DNA from: a virus
Lineage: Duplodnaviria > Caudoviricetes
Reading direction: 5' to 3' (one strand)
IMG/VR virus record: IMGVR_UViG_3300011008_002750
Coordinates: 56,855-120,854 of that record
DNA: 64,000 nt
Shown one piece after another: positions 5,678 through 54,750 of the stretch (within the stretch, counting starts at the first letter, position 1; each line of letters opens with the position of its first letter). The notes below the pieces were generated by a model. It saw only the letters and a list, made by a program, of their open reading frames with translations, ran no database searches and was not told the origin of the DNA. The position numbers and the translations under genes were made by a program.

Positions 5678-8600
5678 ATGAAAATTAAAATTAAAAATAA
5701 TAAGAATATAAAAGAATTAAAAGAAAGCCAATTGTTAGAATTGGATAATCCAGCTATACAAGAAAATAATAAATCGACTGCTGCTAATTTATATAAAGCG
5801 CTATGCGCAAAGCAATTTATATAGGATCGCAAAAAGGAGGATGTTCTTATTAATGTTGTAGTTCCAGATAAATTATATACAAATTTAAATATCTTAAAGT
5901 CCCCAATAGATATATAGAATTTAATGACATCTGCTATTACCAATAAATCTGAAAAAACTAGGGATTTTGAAAAATGGGGGATGGTTGATCCAATTGCTAC
6001 ATATAATTCAGCTGAAGATTGTTGTGCAACTGCATTTAAAAATTTTAATTCTAAAATTCAATTAGCCAAATCCAAAGATGAGCAACAACTGAATAAAGAA
6101 AATGTTGCATCAGAAGGCATTTTAATTAAAAATACTAATGTATTAAATGAAATTACCACTGCAGCCGCAACTGCTGCTGGAGTTCAAAGTGGATTAGCTA
6201 TTTCTCATGGAATTAATCTAATTAATTGTTTTGGAGCGGGATTAGTTAGTACTGTTGGTGCAACTGTTACTGTATGGGGTTCTTTATTTGCTGGATTATG
6301 TGTCGGCACACATGAGATATCAAAATATGCCGGCTATAAATTAACAGATGCAACTCCAAATGGAACAAAACAAGATGGAAAAGAAATCACAGATCCAAGT
6401 AAAGATATTTTATCTAATATAACTAAAAGTACTACATTAGATTTTAATAATGTATCTCCAGCAATAGAAACATATATTAATGATATTATGCAATCTATTA
6501 GAGATTTATTATAGGGATTGTCTCCAAATATGTTAGAGGACTTTAATAAAATTTCTAAATATATTACAAATTATATGGCAGTATCATCAGATAAAGCTGA
6601 AAATTTTATAAAGGAAAACTCTGAAGCATTAAAAGAATAGGAAAAGATAAGGCATGATAAAGAAATTATTGATTTAAATAAACAAAAAACTGCATTAGAA
6701 AAACAATCAAATTTTATAACAAAAATGTTAGAAGCAGCTAGTGCTGAATAGCAAATACGAAAAGATGAATTTGTAAAAATTAACGCAATTATTAATTATT
6801 ATAAAACTGCTAATTCAAAAGACTATGAAAAAAAGAGAATGTTGGAAGATGCATTAGAAGAAGGTGGCATTAAAAAAGTTATTGTAACATATACTACAAG
6901 TATCGAGAAATCACCTAAAAAGACGCAAGAAACACCTCAACTTGCATCTGCTGCATATTTAGGAAATAATAGTAATAGTTTAAATGAAGCTGCAGAAGAA
7001 TTAGCAGTAGGAAATAAACCAGATTTACCATTAGATACAATATATAAAGGGCTATACACAGATCTTAAAAGCAATTTTGATGCATTATGCGCTAAATTTG
7101 ATAAAAAGCAAATGACAAATTTGGAAGAAACCAAAGAAAATATGAAGCTCCTTATTGACGAAGCGGATAAAACTATTAAAGATCGAATAGAAAAAATAAC
7201 AAAATCTAATTAGACCTCATCTGGAAATGAATCTGGATTAACTAAAGCTGCTGTACAATTTTTAGCTGGACATCCGTTAGAAGCTGATAATTTATTAGAA
7301 ATTTGGAGTCGTCATTTAGCAGATCTTAAATAGCGAATGAATGCAAGAATTAAAATAATGACTGATACTGGAAATTCAACCAGAACACTTGGATGGACTA
7401 TTTCATTTTTACAAAATGTTATGCCTGATCTTATATCAAGGCTGCTCACATATCGTTATGGGTATTAGGTATTAGCTAAAAAAGGAATGTATACATATAA
7501 TACAGCCAAAATTAAAAAGGATATGGAGTTGTATAATGATACAAGTACTGGCCTTAAAACTATATATGAAGAGAGTCCAAGGGCTAAATTAATTTTCATT
7601 TTAAATAATTATAGTGGAGATTATACTAATACTGGTAAAAGTTGTATATCTCCAGATGAAAATGGTAAATTTACTTTAAATGAAAATTATTTAGCATACG
7701 GTTCATTATTAGCTAAAAAACTTAAACCTAGACTATCTGATGAAAATATTATTAAAATGGGAGTAGACTTAGCAAATATTAATAAAACTATAGAAGGCGC
7801 TGAATATTTATATAATGGCTTATATGGGGCACTTAAAAGATATCCAGCAATGTCGCTTTTTCCACAAAGTGATAATTTTGAAATAGAATTTGATAATTTA
7901 ATTAATACATTTAAAATGAATGATGAAATTAAAGCATTAAAAGATACTATATTAACGGCATATAATAAAATTAAAAATATAGGTAATAATGTATTATCCA
8001 ACTTAAATGTAGAAAATGCTAAAAATATTGCATAGTCATTTTATATTATTGCTAATAATAATCCAATGGTTATTTATAACATATATATGAAAAACGAAGG
8101 TGATATTACAAAATTATTAACAGAATTTAAAGCAGCAGAAAAAAATGATAATAAAACTTTAAATAAAATTAGGCAAGATATACATAAAATATTTTCTAAT
8201 ATTGATTTTTCAAATCTTAATGAAACCGATGAAAACATATATATATCAACAATTAAAAATATGTTTGAATCAAAATATAATAATGACTATTATTCATATA
8301 TTATTTCATTTGCAGATAGAACAAAATTAGGAATACCACATTTATTTTCAAAAAATGGTATTAAACAATCATGTGCAATATTTCCAGTCTTAGTAGAGCT
8401 GGCTTCATCCGGTATATTATCATATGTAGAAGATGAAGATAAATCAGAAAAAGTTGATACCACTAAAATTGATGAATTAATTAAAGAAATTAAAGATATC
8501 CCGTGTGCAAAACTTGCTGCATATAATACATTATCATCTATTGATGCATCAAATAATCCTACTTTTGAAGAATGTAAAAAGATTTTAATATATAATCAAA

Positions 8601-16762: not shown

Positions 16763-16909
16763 TTAAGATACTGCTTCTTCTTTTAATATTTTGCATTTAC
16801 TTTCAGATGGATTTGTTTTTGGATCTACACCATTCCAAATAACAGCTGGACGGGCAGTTTGTGTATATGTATCAAATTCTGCAGTGATGACTTTCTTAAG
16901 GTATTTCAT
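16763..16909 (-). CDS. Small hypothetical protein, 48 aa
   Basis: MKYLKKVITAEFDTY... to TAA; converges on the terminator. Confidence 0.5.
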   Translation of the reverse strand: MKYLKKVITAEFDTYTQTARPAVIWNGVDPKTNPSESKCKILKEEAVS

Positions 16910-16969
16910 ATCCTTTCTAATTTATTTTTTCTTTTTATATTTATTTTATTTTTATTGAGAAAAATTTAG

Positions 16970-17434: not shown

Positions 17435-18100
17435 ATGACAAAACTTACGCAAGAACAAATTCAAGCAAATAAAATAGAGTTTATTAATCTCCTCCGTTCA
17501 ACAGGGCGCGAAGGGATTGAAACTTTGATTAATTGGTTGGAAACTAAATCAGATTTTTTCACCGCACCGAGTTCTACTATATATCATGGAAACTATGATG
17601 GTGGTTTATGTCAACATAGTTTAAATGTATATAAATCAGCTAAAGAGTTTATTAAAAACAGTCAAACAACTGCTCTTAAAGAATATGAGCTTGACAAAAT
17701 TTCTGATACATCTATTATTATTGCTGCACTTTTACATGATTTATGCAAAACAAATTTTTATGTAAAGGAGTATAAGAATTTTAAAGATGAAGCAACTAAT
17801 ACTTGGAAAAAATATCAGACATATAAATGTGTAGATAATTTTCCGCTTGGGCATGGAGAAAAGTCAGTTATTATGATTCAAAATTTCATTAGATTGACAG
17901 CATCTGAGATTATTGCTATTCGTTGGCATATGGGAATTTTTGATCCAGGCGCATTTATGTCTCCATATGAGGGGCCTGCACTGAAACGTGCAACAGACGA
18001 TTGCCCACTATTGAATATTCTTCAAATTGCTGATTATTATGCATCACATTTGATGGAGTATACTATAGACCAAAAAGTTGAAAATATTGTTTTTTATTAA
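17435..18100 (+). CDS. HD-domain phosphohydrolase
   Basis: APSSTIYHGNYDGGLCQHS, LLHDLCK, GHGEKSV, IRWHMG, AD. Confidence 0.88.
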   Translation: MTKLTQEQIQANKIEFINLLRSTGREGIETLINWLETKSDFFTAPSSTIYHGNYDGGLCQHSLNVYKSAKEFIKNSQTTALKEYELDKISDTSIIIAALLHDLCKTNFYVKEYKNFKDEATNTWKKYQTYKCVDNFPLGHGEKSVIMIQNFIRLTASEIIAIRWHMGIFDPGAFMSPYEGPALKRATDDCPLLNILQIADYYASHLMEYTIDQKVENIVFY

Positions 18101-18131
18101 AAATAAAGAGCTCTTTTGGAGCTCTTTTTCA

Positions 18132-19205
18132 TTATGGAAGTAATTTAATATAATCATTTAACTATTCAATACATTTATCTAAATCACAAGAAAATATTTC
18201 TAAATAATTTAAATTATTCTATTTTGCAATATTTCTTTTATTAACATCTCTAATAGTCCATATATTACATGCACAACTATAAAATTTGGTATTTTTTTCT
18301 TTCCAATAATTTAATTTATCTATATCTTCCTAATTATTTTCATCAAATGGATGATTACCATGCATCCATGTCCCTTGAATTTCAATATATAAATCTAAAC
18401 TTTTAATATAAAAATCACAATTAAATGGATATACTTCAGATCTATATTGATATTCAAAATTATTTGGATAATTTTATTCTAAATATTCTTTAAATTCTTG
18501 TTCTATTTTAGATGAATTAATTGTTCCATTTTTAATTTTAGTTTGAAAAGATTTATGTCTTGCATCTAAAGATATTGCTAACTACCGACATTTTGGAGTA
18601 TTAAAATATGTAGAAACTCCATATTTTTCAATACATGTTTGTTTTTGTTTTTCAACAAATTCTGATTTTTGAGATGGATGGTAAACACCATTATTTGCAT
18701 AACATGTATTATACATTTTCTATTTAATTATTTCAGCTTTTGCCGGATTATCTACACCATATTTCTTAATCCATGTTTGTTTTGATTTAATTTTATAATT
18801 TAATGTTTTAAATTGCTATTTATTTCCATATATTTTTAAATTTGTATCTTCTTTTCTTTTCTTGGTTACATCATCATTTGCTGCACATTTAGGTGAACAG
18901 TGCATATAATATCCTTTAGCAAAATTATAATATTTTTGTAATCCTCCACAGACTGGGCAAATTGGATGAATATCAATATGATGATATATTCTATATATTA
19001 TTTCACTATACGAATTACTATCATTATAACGTTCATCTAAATATTTTTTAATATCATTATATTTTTCAAGCCACTAATGAGTAAGTTGATATAAATTTAA
19101 AGTAGTTTCATTTTTAACAAAAATTTCAATAATAGTATTATCATTTATTTCATCATAAAAATATTCATACTACCTAATTTTTTTATTGTAAATTTTTTGT
19201 ACCAT
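18132..19205 (-). CDS. Zn-finger + PD-(D/E)XK (DUF559-like) putative homing endonuclease A, 357 aa (TAG=Gln)
   Basis: CPVCG...HCSPKC, KYGVDNP-type repeats, YPFNCDFYIKSLDLYIEIQGTWMHG. Confidence 0.82.
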
Positions 19206-19335
19206 ATTTGTCAGGGGTTTATTTTTATATAAAATATCCTATATAGATACTTATAGGCCCTGACCCCTACTTTCTCTATATAGGATATTTATAAATTTAT
19301 TAATAAACTATTAATTATAATAATGTCAGGGTTAA
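19206..19335 (-). promoter_or_regulatory. Structured 5' leader (hairpin with pseudoknot potential) of endonuclease A
   Basis: 16-bp stem, GAAA/AAGTA internal loop, terminal loop GGTCAGGG complementary to CCCTGAC, which occurs both next to the ATG and upstream. Confidence 0.7.
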
Positions 19336-19367
19336 TAGTTTATTCTTTTTATTATTTATTTCAAAAA

Positions 19368-20105
19368 TTATGGAAGTGTATACATATTTGGAACTTTATT
19401 CAACTTAGTGAACCATTCTTTACACTACTCAATGTCACGGTTAGCCTCATCAACTATTCCCGACATTTGAATGGTGATGCCACCAACTAGATTTGTTGAA
19501 AATACAGTCATTAGTTTATTTGCCTATAATTTGCAATGTGCAGAAATCCATTTTTGAACCCAGACATTATCAAATAATTCTTGCTCTGGAACTTTAACTT
19601 TTAACCCGCAGAAAACATTAACTCTCGGATCATGACCAAGAACCAATAATTCATGTTGAACATAATTCCATCTATGTTGAATATCTACTAATGTAAATTG
19701 TTTAAGCTGATCCCATGCACTCCAAGATATAGTTCTGAATGCAACAGAATCCATGTTCATTAAAGAACCTAGCCATAAATCAGACATAAATGCTTTATTG
19801 AAACCAAAATCAGGATCCATAATTCCAAACATTGCATTTCTATGTTTCATTTCTTGGAATCTAGTAACAGCAACTACGCAATCAGGGAATGCAATTTTTC
19901 TATTTTTTCTGAATTCTGGAGTCCAAAATAATCCTGCCGGAATGATAAAGAAATCTTCTTCCGTCGCATCCGGATCAAGTTCTAGTAATTGTTTTAACTC
20001 TCTATCTATAATTCTCTCATATGTTGCATCAGGTATATTAATTTGGATAGCCCCATCCATTGTTACATCAGCCTTTAACCAATTTTTAAATTCTTCTCTA
20101 GTCAT
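19368..20105 (-). CDS. Neck protein (T4 gp13-like), 245 aa (TAG=Gln)
   Basis: LFDNVWVQKW...NLVGGITIQMSGIVDEA..DIE matches the gp13 C-terminal pattern; extends through two TAGs to TAA. Confidence 0.72.
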
Positions 20106-20169
20106 TATAAAAAACTAATATTTTTATATTTATTTTTGAAATAAATATAATGTAATAAATTATTATTTT

Positions 20170-20310
20170 CTCCTACAATTAAAACTTAATTTGTTTTAAT
20201 TTATATAATAATTAAAAATATTAAAGTTCTTTTTTATAGAAAGCAGGGTAGGAGCTGTAAGTATATAATTAAGAACTTTATTTTATTATAAAAATAAACT
20301 CCTACAAATT
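20170..20310 (+). promoter_or_regulatory. Structured 5' leader of endonuclease B (same architecture as A)
   Basis: GAAA/AAGTA internal loop; loop GGTAGGAG complementary to CTCCTAC at 20299 and 20170. Confidence 0.7.
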
Positions 20311-21588
20311 ATGAATGAAAAAGAGTATATAGAAGATTATAATTTATTAAACGATGAATATATATTGAGTGTATTTATTAATAATGGTAAATTCCTTATT
20401 AGACGATATGATTCATTTTTAAATAAGCATGATGCTATTAAAAAATATATTGAAAATAGATATTCAGATTCTCAATCTATATAGGAAACATTATATAGAA
20501 TGATTAATAATATTGAAATCCGCCCAATATGTAAAAGTTGTGGTAAACCGGTTAGCTTTAATGGTTATAAAGGGGGTTTCTCTATATTTTGTTGTTCAAA
20601 ATGTGCATCAAATGATCCAGAAGTAAAGCAAAAAGTAATGCAAACGTCTTTAATAAAATATAATACATTATATCCTAGCTAGAATAAAGAAGTTAAACAA
20701 AAATAGTCAAAAACAATAAATAGTAAATCAATTGAATAGAAAAAGTAGGCAAGTAATAAAGTAAAAAAGACTAAATTATTAAAATATGGTGATGAAAATT
20801 ATAATAATCATGAAAAAACATCTTAGACCAAATTATTAAAATATGGTAATGAAAATTATAATAATTCAGAAAAATAGAAATAGACATGCATTGCTAACAA
20901 TGGAGGTATTGGATTTTAGTCAGAAAAAATAAAAGAAAAATATATTAAAACTTGTTAGTAGTTATATGGATGTGACGATGGAAGTAAATCTCAAATAGCT
21001 ATTAATAAATTTAAAACTACATGGAAATCAAAAACAACAGAAGAAGTTGCAAATATAGTTAAAAAACAACAAAATACATGTTTACTATTATATAATGAAA
21101 CAAGCTATACTAAAACACTAGAATATCGTAAATTTGTTTCTAATATGGTATCATCACAAGAATATTAGGAACATCAATTATATATTAAAAAATTAAGAGG
21201 AACAGTTAATTCATCAAAAGTAGAATAGCAATTTAAAGAATATCTAGAACAAAATTATCCAAATGATTTTGAATATCAATATAGATCAGAATTATATCCA
21301 TTTAATTGTGATTTTTACATAAAGTCATTAGATTTATATATTGAAATAAATGGTTCTTGGACACATGGTGGTCATCCATTTGATGAAAATAATTAGGAAG
21401 ATATAGATAAATTAAATTTATGGAAATCTAAAAATACATAGTATTTCAATAATGCTATTAATACATGGACTATTAGAGATGTCAAAAAACGAAATATGTC
21501 AAAAGAAAATAATTTAAATTATTTAGAAATATTTACAAAATATGCAGATGAAGCAATAAAACAATTTAATGAATATATAAAACATTAA
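20311..21588 (+). CDS. Zn-finger + PD-(D/E)XK putative homing endonuclease B (paralog of A), 425 aa (TAG=Gln)
   Basis: CKSCG...CCSKC, KYG.ENYNN repeats, YPFNCDFYIKSLDLYIEINGSWTHG. Confidence 0.82.
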
Positions 21589-21600
21589 ATTGTTTTATTT

Positions 21601-22404
21601 TTATATTTTAGTGAACCAATCTCTTTGAGAAACTTTTCCATTTTTAATATCAATAACTACATTTAAGCAACCATTAGTACTAATAGTTGATTTAAATTTT
21701 TGCCCATTAAAATAAAAACTATTTCCAATTAACTATCCAATATAGGTTCCGTCTCCTAATGATTCTATTGGTTTTCCATTTTCTTCTTCATCTTTGATTC
21801 TTTGAGATTCTTTTTCTTCTAATTCTCTTTTTAATTTCATTTCACCAATATAAACATCTTTGAAGTATTTAGAGGCTTCTTCAAAATCATCAAATAAAAC
21901 GTCACCTTCTTCAGGAGAACAATCCATCATTTTTCCATTTATATTGACAACATATTGTGCAGATTGAGTGTTAGAAACAAATTTCATATCATCATATTTA
22001 GTTAAAAATATCTCATGAGGGCCATCTTCCATTAAAATATAATATATTGTTGCAACTTTATTAATTCCATCTTTCCATTTTCCAATATATCCATCATCTA
22101 AATTAGATTCTCCACCAAAATATTTTACCATCTATAATTTAGCATAATGATTTTTGTCTCTATATTTTTGGACAACTAGAGGATCTGTCATATATAATGG
22201 ATGCTCACCGTATGTTCCTTCACATGGCATAAAACTTCCACCATAACAGAATTCAACATCACCTGACAAATCTTTGTCTTCCTCTTCTATTGGCAAATTA
22301 TTCATTCCATGAAACAAAAGATTAGACATCTTTCTAGCAGATGATTGCATTGGACCACCTGGACCAACTATTTTGTCTTTAACAACTTTATAAATATATC
22401 TCAT
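21601..22404 (-). CDS. Hypothetical protein, 267 aa (TAG=Gln)
   Basis: Track ORFs 22132..22404 and 21733..22131 are joined by TAG and continue to TAA. Confidence 0.72.
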
Positions 22405-22406
22405 AA

Positions 22407-25067
22407 TTAAAATCTCCTTCCACTTAACATATTTCCAAATCCTTGATGGAAACCATTATTGTTATATAAACTTTGATCTATATTTCCTTGCATTACTGCA
22501 CCATAACCATTTTGTTTATGTCGTAGATTTCTGAAATTAGCACCAGCTGTTTTATAGAATGCATCAAACTATTCATCTGTTAACTATGCTTCTTTTTCAA
22601 CTAATATATTCAGCATCTAACCAATTTTATATAGTTTTTCTGTCTATGGGGCTTTTTCTATCCATTCATTTAAGAATTTAATAAATTGACGTGATTCAGG
22701 TGCAATAGAAATAAATAAGCATGTTATTGCAATATCATCATGACATAGTGATCCTTCGTAAGAATTTTTCTTTTTATTCTTTCCAAATTGATTCAACTCA
22801 TTAATAGAACTGAGATTAACATCTTGATCATGTTGTCTGACTAATATTTGTCTATTATGAATCATCTTAGCACCTAATTCACAGTAATAATTCTTTCCAT
22901 GTTCTCCGCCTGTTGTTCTGAATCCATATTGAAGTTTCATTTTTTGAATTGGCTATCCTGGTTTCTAAATCCCTTTAACTGTTTTGAGAATTAATGCATC
23001 ATAATAAGTAGGATGTTGTTTGAATTTATTAATCCAGTTATTTCCATTAAAATTCATTTCTATCAAAATTCTGACATTATCTATTTCACCATAACCAGTT
23101 TTCAATATTTGAAATGCAATATATTTAGCTGCTTCTGCACACTGTGTCTCATCTTTAAAATTATCGATATATAAACCGACTTGTTTATATTGGACACAAT
23201 CTTTAATAGATATAGGGCCTCCATTTCTGTTTACATTAATTCTATTAGGACTAAGTGGTTCTATTTCAAATATATTAATAATATTATAATCTGAATCTTC
23301 TTTTTCAACAGATGCTTGCTCAATTCCCTGTGCAGTGTCAACAACAAACAAGAATGATTTTCTATATAGTGTTTCATAATCCATATATGTTGGATTGAAA
23401 TCTGGTGCCCATAATATATTATTAGATATTTCTAATGGGACATGATTGAATTCTCTATGGACAAAATCTTGTTTAATTCTATTCATTAAGAGAATTGATT
23501 TTGGAGAAATTAATCTTGTACTGTCAGATTCAAATGATAATTTATATTCTCGTTCAAACAAATCATCATCCATCATTTTCTTTCTCTCTCTTTCTAACCA
23601 TTTTTCATCATGTCCTGGAACTTGCCACCAGTCAACACGGTTAAGAACCCAATCACTAGTTTTTTTAATTGCACTATCAACAATTTCATAGAATTTTCCA
23701 GTTGTTCCACGAGGTGTTGACGAAACAATAATCTATGAGTTTACAAGGCTGGACATTGTAGGAATAACAGATGCCCAGTATTCTGAAATAACGCCTTGAG
23801 GAATAAGAGCACACTCATCAATATATAATAAATGAATAGAATCACCAGTTGCAGGAGTTTTAGAAGCTGCTGCACATTTAATGCATGTTCCATTTTCTAA
23901 TTTAATTCTATTAGCAGAAATATTAAGTATACCCGGTTTTAAGAAGAATGGAAGTCCCTCTAAAAATTCTTTAACTTTTTCTACAATTCCAGAAGCAGTA
24001 GATTCTTTATTTGCACAAATAAAAATATTTCTATCATTATGAAATATTGCATACCACATTATAAATGCGCCAATAGTGGTAGTATTATGAGATAAAATAC
24101 CATTAGAATAATAACTATGATCTGATTCTTCAACAGATATATCATACATATATTGAAGTTGATGAGTATTTACTACTGATTTAACTTTTGTCCAGCCATT
24201 TTCAGTTAATATATAATGATTTTCAGTTAAATCTTTAATAAAAATCCACTATTCAATAAAATTAATAGATGCATAAATTCTATGATTATCTGCACCATCT
24301 AGAGTTAATCCATTTTCTAATTCAAGATGGTATATTTCAAAAGGTTTAGTTCTAAAAAGCTGTGTAGCGTGATTATACTAATCTTTTGATTTAATTTCAA
24401 ATTGGACATCTTGTTTTTCTATAAGTTTTTCTTGATGATTTTTACCAAATTTTATAGATTCTAATTTATAAATTATATTTGTTAATTTATTTTTAAATAA
24501 TTTAGTATCATTTAATTTATATGCATTATAAATTATTTTATCTAATAAAGATGGAAATTTAATATTATTAAAATATAATTCATATAATTTAATTTTTCCA
24601 TATTCTTTAGTATCTATAATGGAATTTCCAGATAGGCATTTTGAAGTTTGTCTACTCTAAAGTAAACATACCATTGGGTTGTCTGGCATAATAACCTCTT
24701 CATCTGGGTCCCAATGTTCACTAGATAATGTTTTTAAATTCTCTTTTTGAAAATCATATAATTTAACAGTTGTTCTTCCTTTCTTATTCAAAAATTTTGC
24801 ATAATTTTCAACAAACCATATACAATCATTAGAGCATTTGTCCATTATTTTAAGTTCTTCATCAGTATATTCAAATATAACACCGGCATCACGCCAATCT
24901 GGACTACCGTGAAAGAATGGAGTTGTATCAGCTTTACCACCATTTAGAACATTTGTAGTTATTTCTTTGATTTTTTCTGTAGAATAAACTTTAGATTTCT
25001 TTTCTAATTCGGCTTGCTTGTCTAATACATTACTATGTATGTCAAATTGTTGTCGAACCTTTGGCAT
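22407..25067 (-). CDS. terL: Terminase large subunit (T4 gp17-like) with a mini-intein, 886 aa (TAG=Gln)
   Basis: KLYDFQ, SRQTSK|TTT Walker A, LYIDECA Walker B, SSTPRG, VVDTAQG, IEMN, HDDIA; about 10 in-frame TAG. Confidence 0.93.
24084..24638 (-). mobile_element. Contiguous mini-intein (185 aa) in the terminase P-loop
   Basis: Starts CLSGNS after SRQTSK; GADNH (block B); MYDISV...NGILSHN followed by Thr; no endonuclease domain. Confidence 0.9.
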
Positions 25068-36083: not shown

Positions 36084-36302
36084 TTAAAAATCATATTGTG
36101 AAAACATTCTATCCCAACATTCTGGACAAGTTCTAGTTATTAATAATTCGCGTTTAGTAGGTGGCAGATATGGAAATGCTTCTTGAACCAATTTTTCTCC
36201 TCGTTGCCATGCTCCTAAATCTTCTAAATCAACAGATATTGGAATTTCTTGACCACAACATTTACAACGAACTTTAAGATTTACAAAATTATCATTATTC
36301 AT
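36084..36302 (-). CDS. Small Zn-ribbon-like protein
   Basis: CKCCG...VQEAFPYL...RELLITRTCPECWD. Confidence 0.75.
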   Translation of the reverse strand: MNNDNFVNLKVRCKCCGQEIPISVDLEDLGAWQRGEKLVQEAFPYLPPTKRELLITRTCPECWDRMFSQYDF

Positions 36303-36387
36303 AATATAAATAATATATTTTACTTCAATATATTTATTAAAACTTTTAATGTGTTTGTTTTATAATAATTAAAAATAAAATAAAATT

Positions 36388-45733: not shown

Positions 45734-45823
45734 ATGTCGGTATGCAAGTTGGTTGAAGCACATAATCTCCAAAATTATTAGAATTTTAATATTCTCACGT
45801 GGGTTCGAATCCTACCCGGCATG
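45734..45823 (+). tRNA. tRNA-Trp(CCA) with a long variable arm
   Basis: ataat-ctccaaa-attat anticodon arm; GGTTCGAATCC T-arm; about 20-nt extra arm. Confidence 0.75.
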
Positions 45824-45848
45824 CAACAAATAAGATCTTTGAAATAAC

Positions 45849-45997
45849 GCGTTCGTAGCTCAGTCGGTTTTAGAGCATCTGACTTTCTAGTGATGAGAAC
45901 ACTAAAAAATCTCAGAGTTCATTATGGATGTATGTAAGTTCGATTCTTACATGAACTCCTAATCAGAGGGTCGTGGATTCGAGTTCCACCGGACGCA
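45849..45997 (+). tRNA. tRNA-Lys(TTT) with a 73-nt anticodon intron (45887-45959)
   Basis: Removing the insert restores tctga-cttttaa-tcaga and a canonical cloverleaf. Confidence 0.82.
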
Positions 45998-46011
45998 CAA
46001 AATATAAAATA

Positions 46012-46084
46012 GTCCCTTAGCTCAGTTGGTTAGAGTGCTTCCCTTACATGGAAAAAGTCGTAGATTCGAATTCTACAGGGACTA
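46012..46084 (+). tRNA. tRNA-Val(TAC)
   Basis: Cloverleaf; loop cttacat. Confidence 0.88.
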
Positions 46085-46122
46085 CAAATAAAAGCGAACA
46101 TTGAAATATTGATTTAATATAT

Positions 46123-46195
46123 GGACCAGTAGCTCAAATAGTAGAGCACATCCCTGAAGAGGATGGTGTAGGCGGGGCAGTACCGTCCTGGTTCG
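46123..46195 (+). tRNA. tRNA-Phe(GAA)
   Basis: catcc-ctgaaga-ggatg; variant T-loop ggcagta. Confidence 0.8.
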
Positions 46196-46275
46196 CAATT
46201 TAAAATTAAAGCGAACATACCATTTTTACCATAATTCCATAAATAAATATAATATAAAAAATAAGTATTATTAAA

Positions 46276-47217
46276 ATGGAAAATTTTAAATGTATTTGTG
46301 GTAAAGAATTTAATAATAAATTATCATTAGGTGGGCATAAAACATCTTGTAAAATATATTAGGAAGAAAAACAAAAATAGTTAAGTATTTTATAGGAAAA
46401 TGAAATTAATTATTAGTATATATGTAATTGCGGTAAACGATTTAAAACATAGAGTAGTTTAAATTCACATGCAAGATGGTGTGAACAATATTAGAAAAAA
46501 GATTTTTCATCAAAATATTTTAATAAAGAATTAAAAATTTTTAGATGTGAATGTGGTTTCGAAACAAATAAAGGTAATTCGATTAATGGTCATTTTTCAC
46601 GATGTAATATACATAGAGCAGCTATTGGTAAAGAATCGGCACCAATATATAAAAATTTAAAAATTAGTTAGTATAATTTTAAAAATCTTGATAAAGAGCA
46701 ATTATTAAAAATTTGTTATAAAGGTATTGAAAGCCAACGAAAAATGTATAAAACTGGAGAATTGGTTGGTTGGTGTAAAGGATTAACAGCTGAAACAGAT
46801 GAAAGAATTGCTAAAATAGTTCAAACTCAAAAAAGAAATGGTATAACTGGAGGTTATAGAGAAAATTCAGGAATATGCAAACATGGAAAATATAATGGAA
46901 TTCATTGCGATAGCACTTGGGAATTAGCTTATATTTTATATTGTAATGATAATAATATTCCAATAAAAAGATGTGATAAAGTATTTGATTATTATGATAA
47001 TGAAGGAAATAAACATCGATATTATCCAGATTTTATAATAAATGAAAATGAAATTATAGAAATTAAAGGTAGAATTACTGACTAGTGGAAATTAAAGCTT
47101 CCGATAGTTGAAAGAGAACATATAAAAGTTTTATATAAAGAAGATATGAAAGATATTTTAAATTATTGTTATGAAAAATATGGTAATGATTTAACATATC
47201 TTTATGATAAAAAATAA
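46276..47217 (+). CDS. Zn-finger + TnsA-like PD-(D/E)XK endonuclease in the tRNA cluster, 313 aa (TAG=Gln)
   Basis: Three CxCG..F...SL..H...C repeats; CDSTWE, RYYPDF, IEIKG. Confidence 0.82.
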
Positions 47218-47220
47218 TAT

Positions 47221-47306
47221 GACCGTATGTCCGAGTGTTCGAAGGTATGGCACTGCAAATGCCATTGGAGAAATCCGCATCGGGAGTTAGAATCTCTCTA
47301 CGGTCA
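47221..47306 (+). tRNA. tRNA-Cys(GCA) with a long variable arm
   Basis: tggca-ctgcaaa-tgcca; acceptor gaccgta/tacggtc. Confidence 0.75.
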
Positions 47307-47320
47307 CATATTAAATTATT

Positions 47321-47404
47321 GGAGATACCAACTGTCGAGGAGACGGGACCGCTTGCTAAGCGGATCGCACCTTCGGGTGTCCGGGTCGGAACCGGGGATC
47401 TCCG
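47321..47404 (+). tRNA. tRNA-Ser(GCT)
   Basis: ccgc-ttgctaa-gcgg, long variable arm, G73. Confidence 0.75.
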
Positions 47405-47416
47405 CAAAATAAATAC

Positions 47417-47497
47417 ACCCCAGTAGGCGAATAGGTATAGCCACATGCCTAAGGCGCATGGTTTAATTACGCGAGGGTTCGAGTCCCTCTTGGGGTA
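47417..47497 (+). tRNA. tRNA-Leu(AAG)
   Basis: catgc-ctaaggc-gcatg; type II body, A73. Confidence 0.8.
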
Positions 47498-47581
47498 CGA
47501 AAATAGTATTTAAGAGAGTAAAAATTTGAAACTTTGCTCTCTTTTTTCATATAATAAATAACAAAATTGTATATATAGACA

Positions 47582-48466
47582 ATGAATAAAAAGAATTTAT
47601 ACAATAAAATAATGAAATCGGTTTCAAAAGAAGTTAAAAAAACTTTAAATGAAGGTTTACCATTAGAACATTATAATGATGATTATGATGAAATTAATTA
47701 TATATTTGATTTAGATGAATTGCTAGATGATGAAAAAGCATTAAAATATTATGATAAATTTCCATTAAGATTTCTTAGTGCTAAGGTATTTGGTGGTCCA
47801 TTTATGCTTAATGAAGGAAAAATTGAATTACTAGAAAAAACTCCATCAAGAACGTATTCTATTGAAGAAGTTACAAAAGTTGGGAGATCATTATTAGGAT
47901 TAGAACCCGGCTGGATTAAAACACTAATTGCTGCAAATAAAATAGAAACATGTGTTTTAATATTAGATAAATTTGATAATGTTAATTTTATTATTGAAGG
48001 AATGAAAGCATTTGGCTGGACATTTTCATATGATGAAACCACAATTATGGATCAACATGTATTCAAATCATTGCATTTTGATCCAATGTTTCAAGATGTA
48101 GTAAATGAAGAAATTAAAAAATGCAGTTTATTGAAACACTGGACGCCATTTTATAATTTTAACAGTATTATGCAAAATGGATTGATACCGAAATCTAATA
48201 ATTTTATATTTTCATATCCACCTAAAATTCATTTAATTAAAGGAACTGCAGATAATTATGAAATAATGAATATTGGTGAGCAATTATGTCTTGCAAATAA
48301 AGACCCTCGAAATAATAGACATTATGTTTTGTTAAACATTAATGCAAAAGACTTATTAGATAAAATTGATTTCTTTTATGATCCTCGATATGAATGGGGA
48401 TATTATACAAAGCAGCCTATAGACAAACAATATATAACTAAAAATATGAATTATCATTTTGAATAA
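47582..48466 (+). CDS. Hypothetical protein with a possible Tpt1/KptA-like (ART-fold) C-terminus
   Basis: LKHWTP....SI...GLIPK...KIHL...VLLNI pattern; N-terminus MNKKNLYNKIMKSVSKEVKKTLNE. Confidence 0.6.
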   Translation: MNKKNLYNKIMKSVSKEVKKTLNEGLPLEHYNDDYDEINYIFDLDELLDDEKALKYYDKFPLRFLSAKVFGGPFMLNEGKIELLEKTPSRTYSIEEVTKVGRSLLGLEPGWIKTLIAANKIETCVLILDKFDNVNFIIEGMKAFGWTFSYDETTIMDQHVFKSLHFDPMFQDVVNEEIKKCSLLKHWTPFYNFNSIMQNGLIPKSNNFIFSYPPKIHLIKGTADNYEIMNIGEQLCLANKDPRNNRHYVLLNINAKDLLDKIDFFYDPRYEWGYYTKQPIDKQYITKNMNYHFE

Positions 48467-48485
48467 TAGAGGCTAAAAAATAAAG

Positions 48486-48525
48486 CTTCTATTTTTTATT
48501 TTGAAATATTTTTATTAATTTTGCA
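48486..48525 (+). promoter_or_regulatory. Promoter copy 6
   Basis: Same motif and spacing. Confidence 0.8.
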
Positions 48526-48548
48526 TTGTAATTAAAAATAATATAGTT

Positions 48549-48767
48549 ATGAGAATCTACACAGTTTCAAACGAACAAGGCTATCATGAAGAATTTTATA
48601 GTCTTCCAGCAGCTAAAAAGGCAATGAAAGAACACAATGCCAAAGGTTTTATTACTGCAGTTAGAAGCAATGGTGATTGGGAACCTATGGGAGAAATAAA
48701 ACTCAAAAGAAACAATGCATCAATGCTTGCAGGAGCAACAAAACAAACAATAAATAATTATAATTAA
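48549..48767 (+). CDS. Hypothetical protein
   Basis: 72-aa ORF after the promoter. Confidence 0.7.
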   Translation: MRIYTVSNEQGYHEEFYSLPAAKKAMKEHNAKGFITAVRSNGDWEPMGEIKLKRNNASMLAGATKQTINNYN

Positions 48768-48778
48768 AAATACTACAA

Positions 48779-49018
48779 TTGACAACAGAAGAAAGACTTG
48801 CTGCACGAGAGCAGCGTCGTAAAGAAGATCAACAATTTCGTGAAAATCTTATTGAAGAGATTGCTAATGAATATGATTTTGGTCGTGCAATAGCTAAAGC
48901 ATGTGTTGATAAAGGTTGGGAAGATGGACATGCATATGGTTATAGTGAAGTTAGAACACAATCTGAAATTGCAGCTGATTTCGCAGAGAAAATTCTTGCA
49001 ATTATTGGACCGGCATAA
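48779..49018 (+). CDS. Hypothetical protein (TTG start)
   Basis: WEDGHAYGYSEV motif. Confidence 0.7.
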   Translation: MTTEERLAAREQRRKEDQQFRENLIEEIANEYDFGRAIAKACVDKGWEDGHAYGYSEVRTQSEIAADFAEKILAIIGPA

Positions 49019-49037
49019 TTATGAAACTAAAAATAAT

Positions 49038-49703
49038 ATGAGTGAAGTTAGTCGATATTTCGAGAAACAAATTTTGCAGTTTGATTCATCTAAGGTGAAG
49101 ATATTCTTTACCTCAGATACTCACTGGAACCATACCAACATAATTAAATACTGTAAGCGCCCATTTGCTAATGTAGAAGAAATGGACGAGGTGTTAATTG
49201 AGAATTGGAATGCTGTTATTGGTTCAGATGATATTGTTTTTCATCTTGGTGATTTTGCATGGGGTGGTTCTGAAGTTTGGAATAATGTTCTTGATAGATT
49301 GAACGGACATATTTATTTGATTCTTGGAAATCATGATATGAAAAATTTGCGTCAAGAATATATTTCAAAATTTGAAGCAGTTGCATTTCAGATGTATATT
49401 TATATTGACGGACGCGCAGTTTATTTGAATCATTACCCATTCCTTTGTTATGGTGGATCATATCGCGGTGAGCAAGCTGTATGGCAATTATTTGGGCATG
49501 TACATTCTCAGCCACAACATTATAATATTGACGATATAAATGACCTAGAAGTGAAAGAAATTCTCGGTAAAGACACTTATAGACTTCAGTATTTGATGCC
49601 CACTCAGTATGATGTAGGTGTAGATAATAATAATTATAAACCTATTAGTTGGGAAGAAGTTAAAGAGAAAATTCAAAAACAAATTGAAGCAAGTGAAGAT
49701 TAA
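49038..49703 (+). CDS. Calcineurin-like metallophosphoesterase
   Basis: TSDTHW.H, HLGDF, LGNHD, NHYP, GHVH, DVGVD. Confidence 0.9.
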   Translation: MSEVSRYFEKQILQFDSSKVKIFFTSDTHWNHTNIIKYCKRPFANVEEMDEVLIENWNAVIGSDDIVFHLGDFAWGGSEVWNNVLDRLNGHIYLILGNHDMKNLRQEYISKFEAVAFQMYIYIDGRAVYLNHYPFLCYGGSYRGEQAVWQLFGHVHSQPQHYNIDDINDLEVKEILGKDTYRLQYLMPTQYDVGVDNNNYKPISWEEVKEKIQKQIEASED

Positions 49704-49743
49704 CTTCTATTTTTTAGTTTAAAGATAAAATATTATTTTTGCA
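49704..49743 (+). promoter_or_regulatory. Promoter copy 7
   Basis: Same motif and spacing. Confidence 0.8.
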
Positions 49744-49771
49744 TCATAATAATAAAAAATAAATACTAATT

Positions 49772-50464
49772 ATGAAAATAAAAAATCAAACTTTGATGTA
49801 TTTATATCGTCAAGAAAAATGTCTTGGCCGTGATAATGATAGTTGCTGTAATGTAGACGAAAATCATAAAATTCGCTATATTCTTTCACCATATGAGTTA
49901 AAACCAGATTATGGAAAGATGTATGCAGATATGAAAGAAAACAAAGAGATGACATATGATGATTGGTTTTCAAAAAATTGGTATCCGGTTTTTTCCAACT
50001 TTAATGCAAAAGATTGCAAAATAATCGAAGAAACATATTGTGATGGTTGGAACGGTTTATTTAATATGTTACCCGTATTAAATAATGATATGTGCGCAGA
50101 AGTTGTATTCACGACTGAATATGCGGCTGATATAGCAGATGATTATGTTGAAGAGATTCTTAAAAAACAAAAAGATGATATTAGAGATTTGTTAGATAAA
50201 ATTAATCATACTGCAACATATGAATGTTATGTTTTGAAACGTAGATTAGATGATGTTATGCTTGGATGGGAAAATGATATACCATTTTATGAGTTGGAGG
50301 ATGGTTATGTAAAATGGGATGTACATGGTAGAGCAAATGTAACACTGTTATTTGATAAAAATCTTTGTGATTTATTTGATGATAATACAGAATATGATGA
50401 AAATGGTGAATATGTTCCATATAAAGCAACGGTAACAATTTCAAGTAATATTAAAAGATTATGA
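49772..50464 (+). CDS. Hypothetical protein
   Basis: 230-aa ORF. Confidence 0.72.
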   Translation: MKIKNQTLMYLYRQEKCLGRDNDSCCNVDENHKIRYILSPYELKPDYGKMYADMKENKEMTYDDWFSKNWYPVFSNFNAKDCKIIEETYCDGWNGLFNMLPVLNNDMCAEVVFTTEYAADIADDYVEEILKKQKDDIRDLLDKINHTATYECYVLKRRLDDVMLGWENDIPFYELEDGYVKWDVHGRANVTLLFDKNLCDLFDDNTEYDENGEYVPYKATVTISSNIKRL

Positions 50465-51249
50465 AAAAGCGAAGTAAAGATAGTCTCGGTGATCGCATGA
50501 AGCGATATGAGGCAGTAAGTAAAACTTCATTAGTTCAAAGAATGCCAGTTATTCTTCGTCTTGATGGATGTCATTTTCATACATTTACTAAAGGATTTGC
50601 AAAACCTTTTGATGATGTAATGATTAAATCTATGCAAGATACAATGAAATATTTGTGTGAAAATATTCAAGGTTGTGTATTTGGATATACGCAATCGGAT
50701 GAAATCACCCTTGTATTGGTTGATTATAAAAATTTGAATTCAAGTCAATGGTTTGATAATGAGGTTCAAAAGATGTGTTCAGTTGCAGCATCAATGGCAA
50801 GTATGCATTTTAACAAATGTTTTGCATATAATGCAATAAATGCAGGAAATGAAGAAGAATTGTTTAAAAAACACTGGGATGCATTTACTAAACATGGAGC
50901 ATATTTTGATTGCCGTGCATTTAATGTTCCTAAAGAGGATGTTTGCAACTGTATACTTTGGCGGCAGCAAGACGCGACAAGAAATTCAATTCAATCACTG
51001 GCACAATCTCAATTTTCTCAAAAACAAATGCACGGTTTAAGTTGTAATATGTTGCAAGATAAATTGATGGTTGAAAAAGGAATTAACTGGAATGATCTAG
51101 ATACTGTTAAAAAACGTGGTTCTGCTTGTATTAAAAATTATTATACAGAAAATGTAAAAACACGTTCTAAATGGGTTATTGATTATAATATGCCTATTTT
51201 GTCACAAGACAGAAATTATGTTGAACAATTTGTAATATTGTCAGATTGA
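50461..51249 (+). CDS. thg1: tRNA(His) guanylyltransferase / Thg1-like 3'-5' polymerase
   Basis: RMKRYE, RLDG.HFH.FT, YTQSDEI, FDCR, WRQQDA.RNSI, GINWN, KRG. Confidence 0.93.
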   Translation: MKKRSKDSLGDRMKRYEAVSKTSLVQRMPVILRLDGCHFHTFTKGFAKPFDDVMIKSMQDTMKYLCENIQGCVFGYTQSDEITLVLVDYKNLNSSQWFDNEVQKMCSVAASMASMHFNKCFAYNAINAGNEEELFKKHWDAFTKHGAYFDCRAFNVPKEDVCNCILWRQQDATRNSIQSLAQSQFSQKQMHGLSCNMLQDKLMVEKGINWNDLDTVKKRGSACIKNYYTENVKTRSKWVIDYNMPILSQDRNYVEQFVILSD

Positions 51250-51364
51250 GGTAATTTTTTAAATATAACTAAATAATTTTTCACAGAAAACAATTTGTTG
51301 TTTTTGGGTTTTTATTTTGGGGTATTGAAATATAGTTTAATAAACATTAAAAATATTAAAAATT

Positions 51365-51592
51365 ATGAAAAAAATTATGGCATTTGTAGTAAGAAATGAA
51401 GATGGAATGCTAAATTTAGTTATGGGTGCTACACCATATAAACTTAATATCCACGGAAATGGATATTGGGCAATTCCTGATAATCAAATCGAAAATTGTT
51501 ATATTGAAGAAATTCAAAATGATAAATTTCCTCAAGTCAAATGGGAAGATGCAGAACCAACTAAAGTTGAATTAACAATTAAAATAAAATAA
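51365..51592 (+). CDS. Hypothetical protein
   Basis: FPQVKWED.EP.KVEL motif. Confidence 0.7.
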   Translation: MKKIMAFVVRNEDGMLNLVMGATPYKLNIHGNGYWAIPDNQIENCYIEEIQNDKFPQVKWEDAEPTKVELTIKIK

Positions 51593-51594
51593 TT

Positions 51595-51873
51595 ATGGAA
51601 AAGAAACTTTTACATTCTGATGAAGAGTATTTTGCTTATTGTGAGCAAGAACAAATTGGTTATATATCTAGACAATATGGGTCTCAATGTTGCGATATTG
51701 AGAATGGCGCTGAATGTCATAATGGTGCTACACTTTATAAAGGAACTAGTTATGAAGAATACTTAAAATTTGATAGTAAACCGTCTCATTATCCATGCAT
51801 ATTAGTGTATTATGATGGACTTGATGATGTAATTCGTGGTATGTTTATTTATCCTGAAGATTTTGAAGATTAA
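51595..51873 (+). CDS. Hypothetical protein
   Basis: 92-aa ORF. Confidence 0.7.
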   Translation: MEKKLLHSDEEYFAYCEQEQIGYISRQYGSQCCDIENGAECHNGATLYKGTSYEEYLKFDSKPSHYPCILVYYDGLDDVIRGMFIYPEDFED

Positions 51874-51875
51874 TT

Positions 51876-52070
51876 ATGACGCAATTTGATAAAGGCTGGT
51901 GGAATTGTTTTAATTCATTTGCCAATAATACAATAAATGACAATGATTCTATTTGTATGGAGGTTCTAAATGGAGCCGGTGTAACAAAGGATGAGGTTGA
52001 AGAAGTATTGCGTAATGGTGATTTATATGGAAATGCATTAAATATTATATATGAATATATAAGAAATTAA
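51876..52070 (+). CDS. Hypothetical protein
   Basis: 64-aa ORF in the operon. Confidence 0.68.
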   Translation: MTQFDKGWWNCFNSFANNTINDNDSICMEVLNGAGVTKDEVEEVLRNGDLYGNALNIIYEYIRN

Positions 52071-52072
52071 TC

Positions 52073-52873: not shown

Positions 52874-52912
52874 TTTTCATTATAATTTATAAAACTTTAA
52901 TTTTTTACAATT

Positions 52913-53536: not shown

Positions 53537-53613
53537 ATAAAATAAATAATTAGAAGAAAATAAACTTTTTTCTAAAAATAAATAAAATAAATAATAAAAT
53601 TAAAAAATAATAA

Positions 53614-53797
53614 ATGCAAAATTATAGAGAACATAGTATGATGATTAATACAATTGGTGAACAACGTCCATCAACAGAACAACCATCTGTACTTTATAAT
53701 GATGCCAATTATTAGCTGAAGAGGTAAACCCTAATATCAGGAAACACAATATATAAAAGAAATTCCTTGGGTTTACAATAAACTCAAGGAATTTTTA
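53614..53797 (+). promoter_or_regulatory. Leader uORF (TAG four codons before TAA) plus terminator before tRNA/ncRNA region 2
   Basis: uORF 53614-53727; hairpin aattccttgggttta/taaactcaaggaatt followed by a T tract. Confidence 0.5.
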
Positions 53798-53821
53798 ATT
53801 AAAAAATAAAACAAAATTTAA

Positions 53822-54749: not shown

Positions 54750-54750
54750 C

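What the first reader, a model, noticed from the sequence alone, without database searches (positions are those of the whole stretch)
19206..20310. Covarying structured leader upstream of two paralogous endonucleases: a loop pairs with a motif repeated on both sides
Seen on the coding strands. Gene A: long stem-GAAA-gtagg-[GGTCAGGG]-cctat-AAGTA-stem ... aaaaataaac-CCCTGAC-aaat-ATG. Gene B: stem-GAAA-gcag-[GGTAGGAG]-ctgt-AAGTA-stem ... aaaaataaa-CTCCTAC-aaatt-ATG. The 8-nt loop and the 7-mer before the ATG differ between genes but remain complementary. A second copy of the same 7-mer lies 115-130 nt upstream in each case (19325-19331; 20170-20176). Established: GAA/AGUA is the bulged-G (loop E) motif. 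Inference: either a two-state pseudoknot switch that occludes or frees the start codon of a toxic nuclease, or a mobile/guide RNA whose loop encodes the complement of its own flanking direct repeat.
Basis: partly seen in the sequence, partly recalled or inferred. Interest (0 to 1): 0.82.

Follow-up and report, generated by a model that had tools for sequence, protein, structure and literature searches.

The report
Covarying leader RNA on phage endonuclease cassettes
Selfish nuclease genes of a giant Prevotella phage carry a roughly 160-base structured leader RNA in which one hairpin loop can pair either with an upstream copy of a short sequence or with a second copy just before the start codon, which probably switches translation on or off.

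Summary
The window is part of a Lak-like Prevotella megaphage that reads TAG as Gln.

**The leader.** Both endonuclease genes, A (18132-19205, minus strand) and B (20311-21588, plus strand), have the same parts in order:
- a promoter-like AATAAATA motif;
- a GC-rich 7-mer (L1);
- a long hairpin with a GAAA/NAGUA internal loop, whose apical loop (L2) is the exact complement of the 7-mer;
- an A-rich linker;
- a second copy of the 7-mer (#2) at -5 to -12 from the ATG.

**Other copies.** I found three more independent leaders with the same three-way rule and different 7-mers. A sixth keeps L1:L2 through a G·U pair but has no #2. Four TnpB genes of the same phage have a homologous leader with L1:L2 only.

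**Structure support.** The hairpin stems covary: 15 of 17 predicted pairs show compensatory changes. Cognate pairings are -10.6 to -15.6 kcal/mol. Non-cognate ones are about +1.6 to -8.6, except A/E, whose 7-mers differ by one base (-9.4 to -10.9).

**Reading.** This is a cis-acting RNA in which L2 either kisses L1 or forms a pseudoknot over the initiation region. That it gates translation is an inference and was not tested. The guide-RNA and flanking-repeat reading is not supported. The motif has no Rfam match and was found only in this phage lineage. Earlier notes of this scan had already described the TnpB leaders.

The parts
18132..19205 (-). Endonuclease gene A: 357 codons with TAG=Gln and one in-frame TAA at 18474-18476, so possibly a pseudogene
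   Evidence: DUF7487, phrog_3339 'homing endonuclease'. The C-terminal part is 54% identical to gene B.
19210..19216 (-). Leader A, 7-mer copy #2 (CCCUGAC), 4 nt before ATG 19205
   Evidence: Duplex with loop L2 is -13.0 kcal/mol.
19232..19290 (-). Leader A, hairpin 2: 16-bp outer stem, GAAA/AAGUA internal loop, 5-bp inner stem, 8-nt apical loop L2 (19258-19265)
19302..19344 (-). Leader A, hairpin 1, with 7-mer copy L1 (19325-19331) in its loop
   Evidence: Duplex L1:L2 is -13.2 kcal/mol.
19353..19367 (-). Promoter-like TTTTTGAAATAAATA at the start of cassette A, directly after the stop codon of gene X
   Evidence: AATAAATA is the most enriched 8-mer upstream of ORFs.
19368..20105 (-). Gene X, head-tail adaptor-like, lying between the two cassettes. 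It is not part of the element.
   Evidence: phrog_211, C-terminal part only.
20133..20147 (+). Promoter-like TTTTTGAAATAAATA, first bases of cassette B
   Evidence: The empty-site contig joins 20132 to 21601.
20170..20176 (+). Leader B, 7-mer copy L1 (CUCCUAC)
   Evidence: -10.8 kcal/mol with L2.
20222..20280 (+). Leader B, hairpin 2: outer stem, GAAA/AAGUA internal loop, 4-bp inner stem, apical loop L2 (20247-20254)
20299..20305 (+). Leader B, 7-mer copy #2 (CUCCUAC), 5 nt before ATG 20311
   Evidence: -11.2 kcal/mol with L2.
20311..21588 (+). Endonuclease gene B: 425 aa with 15 TAG=Gln, intact. Cassette B runs 20133-21600.
   Evidence: The C-terminal domain model has pLDDT 94.5 and matches Vsr (Z 8.9) and I-Bth0305I (Z 8.8).

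Best explanation
Each endonuclease cassette is transcribed from its own AATAAATA-type promoter into an mRNA with a structured leader of about 150-170 nt.

**Two competing pairings.** Hairpin 2 carries a loop-E-like GAAA/NAGUA internal loop and an apical loop, L2. L2 is complementary to two identical 7-8-nt sequences:
- L1, near the 5' end, usually presented in the loop of hairpin 1;
- #2, at -5 to -12 from the AUG.
The two pairings exclude each other.
- L2:#2 forms a classical H-type pseudoknot (one unpaired loop base, a 7-bp second helix, a 17-20-nt A-rich linker running back along the hairpin). It buries the otherwise A/U-rich initiation region, so the gene is off.
- The L2:L1 loop-loop kiss forms first during transcription. 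It keeps L2 busy and leaves the start site open, so the gene is on.
L1 therefore acts as a built-in decoy for the start-site copy.

**What is shown:** the structure, the three-way complementarity and its covariation.

**What is inferred:** that pairing at -5 to -12 blocks 30S binding, and the order of folding.

**What is unknown:** what shifts the balance. Candidates are loss of the 5' end by decay, a protein on the loop-E hairpin, or time.
For: 1. Five independent leaders keep the three-way rule with different sequences: A CCCUGAC, B CUCCUAC, C GUAACGG, D CCACGAC, E CCUCUGAC.
2. A and E differ by one base, and the change is matched at all three sites.
3. Cognate loop:partner duplexes are -10.6 to -15.6 kcal/mol. 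Non-cognate ones are about +1.6 to -8.6, apart from the near-identical A/E pair (-9.4 to -10.9).
4. Hairpin 2 has 17 predicted pairs, 15 with compensatory double changes across six leaders. GAAA and AGUA are invariant.
5. G·U pairs occur in the inner stems of A and B and in the L1:L2 pairing of F. These pair only in the sense-strand RNA.
6. Initiation regions of this phage are about 90% A+U. SD-like motifs occur in 3 of 82 ORFs. Only 5 of 82 ORFs have 4 or more G/C at -12 to -5, so #2 is an outlier placed where 30S needs single-stranded RNA.
7. ATG lies at a fixed distance after the linker in A, B and C.
8. Leader B is 97% identical between two phages whose flanking genes are 79-92% identical.
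9. Precedent: T4-family homing endonuclease genes are controlled by RNA structures that sequester the ribosome binding site (PMC2988022).
10. Another endonuclease gene in this window (57245-58039) has a hairpin whose 3' arm ends 2 nt before its ATG.
Against: - No expression, probing or 5'-end data. The runs that could be laid were assembled contigs.
- Leader F and four TnpB leaders have L1:L2 but no #2, so the conserved core works without touching the start site. The translational switch may be a secondary elaboration.
- Read-through transcripts and the cassette's own transcripts both contain L1, so no obvious signal chooses between the states.
- Pairing of L1 with all seven loop bases leaves no linker on the 3' side of the loop. 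The inner stem would have to open, or the pairing be partial.
- There are only six independent leaders, all from one phage lineage.
- The direction of the effect could be the reverse. In IncB/IncI-alpha plasmids a loop-to-RBS pseudoknot activates translation.
Confidence: 0.55

Rival explanations
1. The functional unit is the hairpin 1 : hairpin 2 kissing complex itself. It would act on the transcript rather than on initiation, in one of three ways:
- as an attenuator, because hairpin 2 is followed by a U-rich run;
- as an RNase III-type processing site, because it is a long irregular hairpin with an internal loop, like the T7 sites;
- as a 5' stabiliser.
Copy #2 would then be a lineage-specific add-on or incidental.
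For: - Leader F and TnpB leaders T1, T3 and T4 keep L1:L2 with perfect or G·U complementarity but have no #2. Their ATG lies about 10 nt after hairpin 2.
- Hairpin 2 is followed by a U-rich tract in every leader.
- HEG and TnpB leaders share the same start (TTTYTGAAATAAATA) and, in leader C, the same hairpin base.
Against: - #2 covaries with L2 in five of five leaders that have it, which cannot be incidental.
- The simple terminator scan does not call hairpin 2.
- The stems are AU-rich and are interrupted by the internal loop.
- A loop-loop kiss does not by itself prevent or promote formation of the terminator stem.
Confidence: 0.25
2. The 7-8-mers are copy-specific addresses used in trans. 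A short leader RNA carrying L2 (or L1) from one cassette would pair with mRNAs of the same cassette type, as in IS10 RNA-OUT/RNA-IN multicopy inhibition or plasmid copy-control kissing loops. Different addresses would keep the many cassettes in one genome from cross-regulating.
For: - Every cassette in the genome has a different address.
- Non-cognate duplexes are weak.
- In TnpB leaders the two 8-mers differ at 2-5 of 8 positions between copies, while the rest of the leader differs at about 9%.
Against: - All partners are on the same molecule in the same orientation, so cis pairing is kinetically favoured.
- No separate promoter or antisense transcript is evident.
- The TnpB genes themselves differ by about 16-20%, so ordinary compensatory drift can explain the 8-mer differences.
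- Orthologs of B and C keep identical 7-mers.
Confidence: 0.08
3. The repeats act at the DNA level, in one of three ways:
- as three binding sites for the nuclease's own DNA-binding domain (autoregulation, as I-TevI binds an operator);
- as a target-site duplication;
- as a guide for insertion of a mobile hairpin module.
For: - In double-stranded DNA the same 7 bp occurs three times per leader and differs between paralogs, whose DNA-binding regions also differ.
- I-TevI is a known autorepressor (PMC2988022).
Against: - The central copy always sits exactly in the apical loop of a hairpin whose stems covary.
- F keeps the pairing through a G·U that is an A-C mismatch on the other strand and a non-identical site in DNA.
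- The length of complementarity varies from 7 to 10 nt and extends into the stem in leader C.
- L1 is enclosed by its own hairpin stem, so it cannot be an insertion boundary.
- The cassette boundary lies upstream of L1.
Confidence: 0.05

Closest known systems
RBS-sequestering hairpins of T4-family homing endonuclease genes (I-TevI, I-TevII, I-TevIII, segB, mobE)
   Same: Free-standing or intron-borne phage endonuclease genes whose initiation region is occluded by an upstream RNA structure, next to a TATAAATA-like promoter (PMC2988022).
   Different: - Here the start region is contacted by a hairpin loop (a pseudoknot), not by the arm of a simple hairpin.
- A cis decoy copy competes for that loop.
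- No promoter motif lies between the pairing partners, so relief by a shorter late transcript is not evident.
- The host uses no Shine-Dalgarno sequence.
IncB / IncI-alpha plasmid repA/repZ control (from my own knowledge)
   Same: A hairpin loop pairs with a short sequence next to the RBS to form a pseudoknot. A competitor for the same loop decides the outcome. Specificity lies in a few loop bases.
   Different: - There the pseudoknot activates translation.
- The competitor is a separate antisense RNA.
- A leader peptide is involved.
Here the competitor is a sense copy on the same RNA and there is no leader ORF.
Sarcin-ricin / loop E (bulged-G) motif
   Same: GAA opposite AGUA in an internal loop, with the G of GAA next to the 3' A of AGUA. 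The arrangement is invariant in six of six leaders, with one extra A·N pair.
   Different: This is known only at sequence level here. No 3D or probing data exist, and no known protein partner is implied.
Guide RNAs of mobile nucleases and recombinases (IS110 bridge RNA, IscB/TnpB omega RNA)
   Same: A structured non-coding RNA encoded next to a selfish nuclease gene, with short variable segments kept by complementarity. TnpB genes of the same phage carry a homologous leader.
   Different: - The complementary partners are inside the transcript, not in flanking or target DNA.
- The endonuclease is a Vsr-like PD-(D/E)XK enzyme.
- The omega RNA of TnpB is 3' of the gene, whereas this leader is 5'.

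Membership tests
Loop E / bulged-G (sarcin-ricin) motif | 5'-AGUA-3' opposite 5'-GAA-3' in an internal loop between two helices, with the G of GAA adjacent to the last A of AGUA | tested here: met
   All six leaders have GAAA on the 5' side and NAGUA (N = A, A, A, G, U, G) on the 3' side, in that orientation.
Loop E / bulged-G (sarcin-ricin) motif | S-turn backbone with a bulged G and non-canonical pairs | not testable with these tools
   Needs probing or a solved structure.
H-type pseudoknot over a translation initiation region | Hairpin-loop bases complementary to a single-stranded segment within the 30S footprint, with connecting loop lengths that allow the fold | tested here: met
   In A-E there are 7-9 bp between L2 and -5 to -12. 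One unpaired loop base lies 5' of the pairing. The linker from the hairpin base to #2 is 17-20 nt by my count of the sequences. That these lengths allow the fold is inference from known pseudoknot geometry.
H-type pseudoknot over a translation initiation region | Formation changes translation | not testable with these tools
   Needs reporter assays or toeprinting.
T4-type HEG regulatory hairpin | A late promoter lies inside the inhibitory structure, so late transcripts lack its 5' arm | tested here: not met
   No AATAAATA motif lies between L2 and #2. The only copy is upstream of L1. Normal motif-to-ATG distance is 19-34 nt, whereas the leaders run about 139-182 nt from motif to ATG.
RNA-guided mobile element (bridge RNA or omega RNA type) | Variable RNA segment complementary to DNA at or beyond the element's ends | tested here: not met
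   Both 7-mers lie inside cassette B (20133-21600), as defined by an empty-site contig. There are no further copies nearby.
RNA-guided mobile element (bridge RNA or omega RNA type) | Associated protein of the IS110 DEDD, IscB or TnpB RuvC type | tested here: not met
   The HE proteins match DUF7487 and have a Vsr-like C-terminal domain. The TnpB genes are separate loci.
Any Rfam family | Covariance-model match | tested here: not met
   cmscan of 17500-22500 at E up to 5 gave one unrelated sub-threshold hit at 21875-21931, outside the leaders, and nothing over the leaders themselves.
Free-standing homing endonuclease gene (Vsr-like / I-Bth0305I-like PD-(D/E)XK) | Nuclease fold with conserved acidic and His residues | tested here: met
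   AF2 model pLDDT 94.5. Vsr: Z 8.9, rmsd 3.4 over 110 residues. I-Bth0305I: Z 8.8, rmsd 2.7 over 91 residues. D35, E46, H53, D91 and K94 (numbering of the 126-residue C-terminal query) are invariant in 40 sequences. Foldseek E-values alone were weak.
Free-standing homing endonuclease gene (Vsr-like / I-Bth0305I-like PD-(D/E)XK) | Presence/absence polymorphism of the whole cassette at an otherwise conserved locus | tested here: met
   One contig in run X5 joins 20132 to 21601, removing cassette B exactly. This is a single contig, so support is modest.
Intrinsic terminator / attenuator | Stable hairpin immediately followed by a U run | tested here: inconclusive
   U-rich tracts follow hairpin 2 in all leaders. 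The consensus scan does not call them, and the stems are AU-rich with an internal loop.

The most novel reading that the evidence does not exclude
The 7-8-mers are programmable addresses. Each selfish nuclease cassette (homing endonuclease or TnpB) in this megaphage would carry a private key-and-lock pair in a shared leader scaffold. Novelty in the address would be favoured so that cassettes escape each other's control, or that of the phage. This would be a cis/trans riboregulator class specific to mobile nuclease genes, and possibly a designable three-part RNA switch that works without a Shine-Dalgarno sequence.
Probability: 0.12. Interest if true: 0.85.

Novelty: new variant of a known kind. 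Interest (0 to 1): 0.62.

Why it matters
- RNA-structure control of phage homing endonuclease genes is known from T4, but only as simple hairpins over a Shine-Dalgarno site.
- This leader is a different solution in a host group that does not use Shine-Dalgarno pairing. It has a loop-E hairpin whose apical loop chooses between a built-in decoy and the start site.
- Three-way covariation of this kind is rare and gives a ready-made set of natural compensatory mutants.
- Homing endonuclease and TnpB genes are unrelated but both selfish. They share the scaffold, which suggests a portable control module for mobile nucleases in huge phages.
- The scaffold is also a small, modular RNA switch that could be tested directly.

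Tried and rejected
**Searches that found no further leaders**
- Rfam search of the region: no family.
- Strict DNA patterns for the leader in IMG/VR and JGI metagenomes: only near-identical orthologs of B (L088, L097) and C (L098). All other hits were chance matches.
- 80 loci encoding homologous endonucleases from IMG/VR, including Lak-like contigs of 300-550 kb: no leader except B's ortholog.
- Covariance model R1 of hairpin 2 in three other Lak-like records: only false hits inside coding sequence. One record asked for was not held.
- N-terminal fragment search for B: only near-identical proteins.
- Look-ups of nine other family members (P0010, P0068, P0158, P0164, P0182, P0186, P0200, P0217, plus P0143 and P0148, which did give leaders): six had no leader or were cut by a contig end.

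**Readings considered and rejected**
- Group I intron: the cassette is intergenic, on the opposite strand to its neighbours, and has no intron model hit.
- Translational bypass of the T4 gene 60 type: no upstream reading frame enters the leader.
- Target-site duplication: L1 lies inside its own hairpin.
- A second promoter in the A-rich linker: it does not match the AATAAATA motif and lies at an atypical distance.

**Inconclusive**
- Read laying gave only contigs. RNA run X16 laid only a few small pieces, so nothing can be said about expression or transcript ends.
- The simple terminator scan did not call hairpin 2.
- Sequence search of the PDB with the whole protein gave nothing significant.

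Full report
**Where this is.**
- The window is bases 56855-120854 of a 120.8-kb IMG/VR record estimated 24% complete.
- Long reading frames appear only when TAG is read as an amino acid.
- The endonuclease protein finds its relatives in Prevotella phages Lak-A, Lak-B and Lak-C at 36-38% identity, with 7-11 places per genome.
- It is therefore a Lak-like megaphage.
- Its initiation regions are about 90% A+U, with A at -3. SD-like motifs occur in only 3 of 82 ORFs.

**The genes.**
- Gene B (20311-21588, plus strand) is 425 aa with 15 TAG codons.
- Gene A (18132-19205, minus strand) is a paralog with one in-frame TAA where B has CAA.
- Both match DUF7487 and PHROG 3339 'homing endonuclease'.
- The conserved C-terminal 126 residues fold with pLDDT 94.5.
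- That model aligns to Vsr (Z 8.9, rmsd 3.4, 110 residues) and to the catalytic domain of homing endonuclease I-Bth0305I (Z 8.8, rmsd 2.7, 91 residues).
- Gene X between them (19368-20105, minus strand) is a head-tail adaptor-like gene.
- A contig in one public run joins 20132 directly to 21601. Cassette B is therefore 20133-21600, an intergenic insertion that begins exactly at TTTTTGAAATAAATA.

**The observation.**
- The hairpins are much more stable than shuffles (z -4.9 and -4.3).
- The genome holds two more paralogs, C and D.
- C (L006:1298-1479) has the same leader with a third 7-mer, GUAACGG. Its second copy gives 8 nt of complementarity and its first copy 10 nt.
- A genome-wide scan for the three-way pattern returns only A, B and C plus one palindrome. 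Shuffled genomes gave a mean of 0.5.

**More leaders.**
- Pattern scans of IMG/VR and JGI metagenomes gave only near-identical orthologs of B and C.
- Leader B is 97% identical in an ortholog whose flanking genes are 79-92% identical.
- A profile search for the N-terminal domain followed by contig look-ups gave three more leaders:
  - D (L123:1241-1400), 7-mer CCACGAC;
  - E (L121:628-780), CCUCUGAC, upstream of a topoisomerase gene;
  - F (L124:146-284).
- A-E all obey the three-way rule.
- A and E differ by one base in the 7-mer, and the change is matched at all three sites.
- F pairs GCCCUAU with GUAGGGC through a terminal U·G. It has no copy near its ATG, which follows hairpin 2 by 11 nt.
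- Cognate duplexes are -10.6 to -15.6 kcal/mol. Non-cognate ones are about +1.6 to -8.6, except the A/E cross.
- RNAalifold on hairpin 2 of the six leaders predicts 17 pairs, 15 with compensatory double changes.
- The internal loop is GAAA opposite NAGUA in all six. This is the sequence signature and strand arrangement of the bulged-G motif. That identification rests on my own knowledge of the motif.
- In five of six leaders the predicted fold places L1 in the loop of an upstream hairpin.

**A wider module.**
- AATAAATA is the most enriched 8-mer upstream of ORFs (36 of 116 ORFs, 12.8-fold). It normally ends 19-34 nt before the ATG. I read it as the phage's main promoter element, close to the T4 late TATAAATA.
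- In the endonuclease cassettes the same motif opens a leader of about 139-182 nt from motif to ATG.
- Four TnpB genes elsewhere in the genome (OrfB_IS605 plus TNB domains) start with the same motif. They have a homologous leader in which an 8-mer in a hairpin-1 loop is the exact reverse complement of an 8-mer in a hairpin-2 loop:
  - TTGGAAGG, GTGGTATC and TTGAGAGG pair perfectly;
  - a fourth copy is degenerate.
- These have no copy at the ATG.
- Between TnpB copies the 8-mers differ at 2-5 of 8 positions, always compensated. The rest of the leader differs by about 9% and the genes by 16-20%.
I found it independently and confirm it.

**Interpretation.**
- The pairing is RNA-level and sense-strand. 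The evidence is covarying stems, a conserved non-Watson-Crick internal loop, G·U pairs, and complementarity of variable length.
- L2 with #2 has the geometry of a classical H-type pseudoknot. One loop base spans the deep groove of a 7-bp helix, and a 17-20-nt linker runs back along a hairpin of about 23-26 base-pair layers. This is inference from known pseudoknot geometry.
- L2 with L1 leaves no linker on the 3' side, so the inner stem must open or the pairing be partial. In C the complementarity indeed extends into the stem.
- #2 occupies -5 to -12, which is normally A/U-rich in this phage. Pairing there should therefore block 30S binding. This is inference from the established inverse relation between start-site structure and initiation.
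- L1 is made first and so can capture L2 before #2 exists.
- I therefore favour a two-state switch with L1 as a cis decoy.
- The T4 precedent for structure-based control of endonuclease genes is documented.
- A second endonuclease gene in this window (57245-58039) has the classical arrangement. A 10-bp hairpin (57203-57242) encloses the promoter motif, and its 3' arm ends 2 nt before the ATG.

**Limits.**
- Nothing here measures expression.
- F and the TnpB leaders show that the L1:L2 core has a role that does not need #2. Attenuation, processing or stability therefore remain live alternatives.
- The direction of the effect is unproven.
- The motif was not found in other Lak-like genomes, so the comparative set is small.
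- The guide-RNA, target-duplication and DNA-site readings are disfavoured for the reasons given under the rivals.

Noticed in passing
same genome, outside the window: G000:C1 about 6239-6392 (-), 16777-16937 (-), 45965-46121 (-), 36150-36330 (+); loci L118-L120: Four TnpB genes (OrfB_IS605 plus Cas12f-like TNB) carry a leader homologous to the endonuclease leaders. An 8-mer in the hairpin-1 loop is the exact reverse complement of an 8-mer in the hairpin-2 loop, and it differs in each copy. All TnpB frames checked are split after about 118-134 codons.
   Followed up: partly
window 18474-18476; L006:1477-2604: Gene A has an in-frame TAA where gene B has CAA. Paralog C loses frame before the nuclease domain, and the rest matches in other frames. 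Some cassettes look like decaying homing endonuclease genes that keep intact leaders.
   Followed up: partly
window 57203-57245: A 10-bp hairpin (TTAGTTCGAA / TTCGAACTAA) encloses the AATAAATA promoter motif, and its 3' arm ends 2 nt before the ATG of a different homing endonuclease gene (57245-58039, phrog_314). This is the classical T4 I-TevI-type arrangement.
   Followed up: partly
whole genome: AATAAATA is the most enriched 8-mer upstream of ORFs (36 of 116) and ends mostly 19-34 nt before the ATG. This phage uses no Shine-Dalgarno sequence and prefers A at -3 and T at -1.
   Followed up: yes
window 20132 | 21601: A metagenome contig (run X5) lacks cassette B exactly. It joins the start region of gene X to the stop codon of the 267-aa ORF, so it represents an empty site. 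Several other short-sided joints near 19357-19360 were not resolved.
   Followed up: partly
L003:1-2620; L006:1477-3732; L121:778-3455: Endonuclease copies C, D and E sit immediately upstream of, or between, type II topoisomerase subunit genes. This recalls the mobile elements around T4 genes 39, 60 and 52.
   Followed up: no
window 45734-63621: There are 13 tRNA genes but no tRNA with a CUA anticodon, although TAG is read as an amino acid. The suppressor tRNA must lie elsewhere in the genome.
   Followed up: no
window 22407-25067 and 19368-20105: The large terminase ORF is unusually long (886 aa). Gene X matches only positions 727-963 of the 976-position head-tail adaptor profile (phrog_211).
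   Followed up: no
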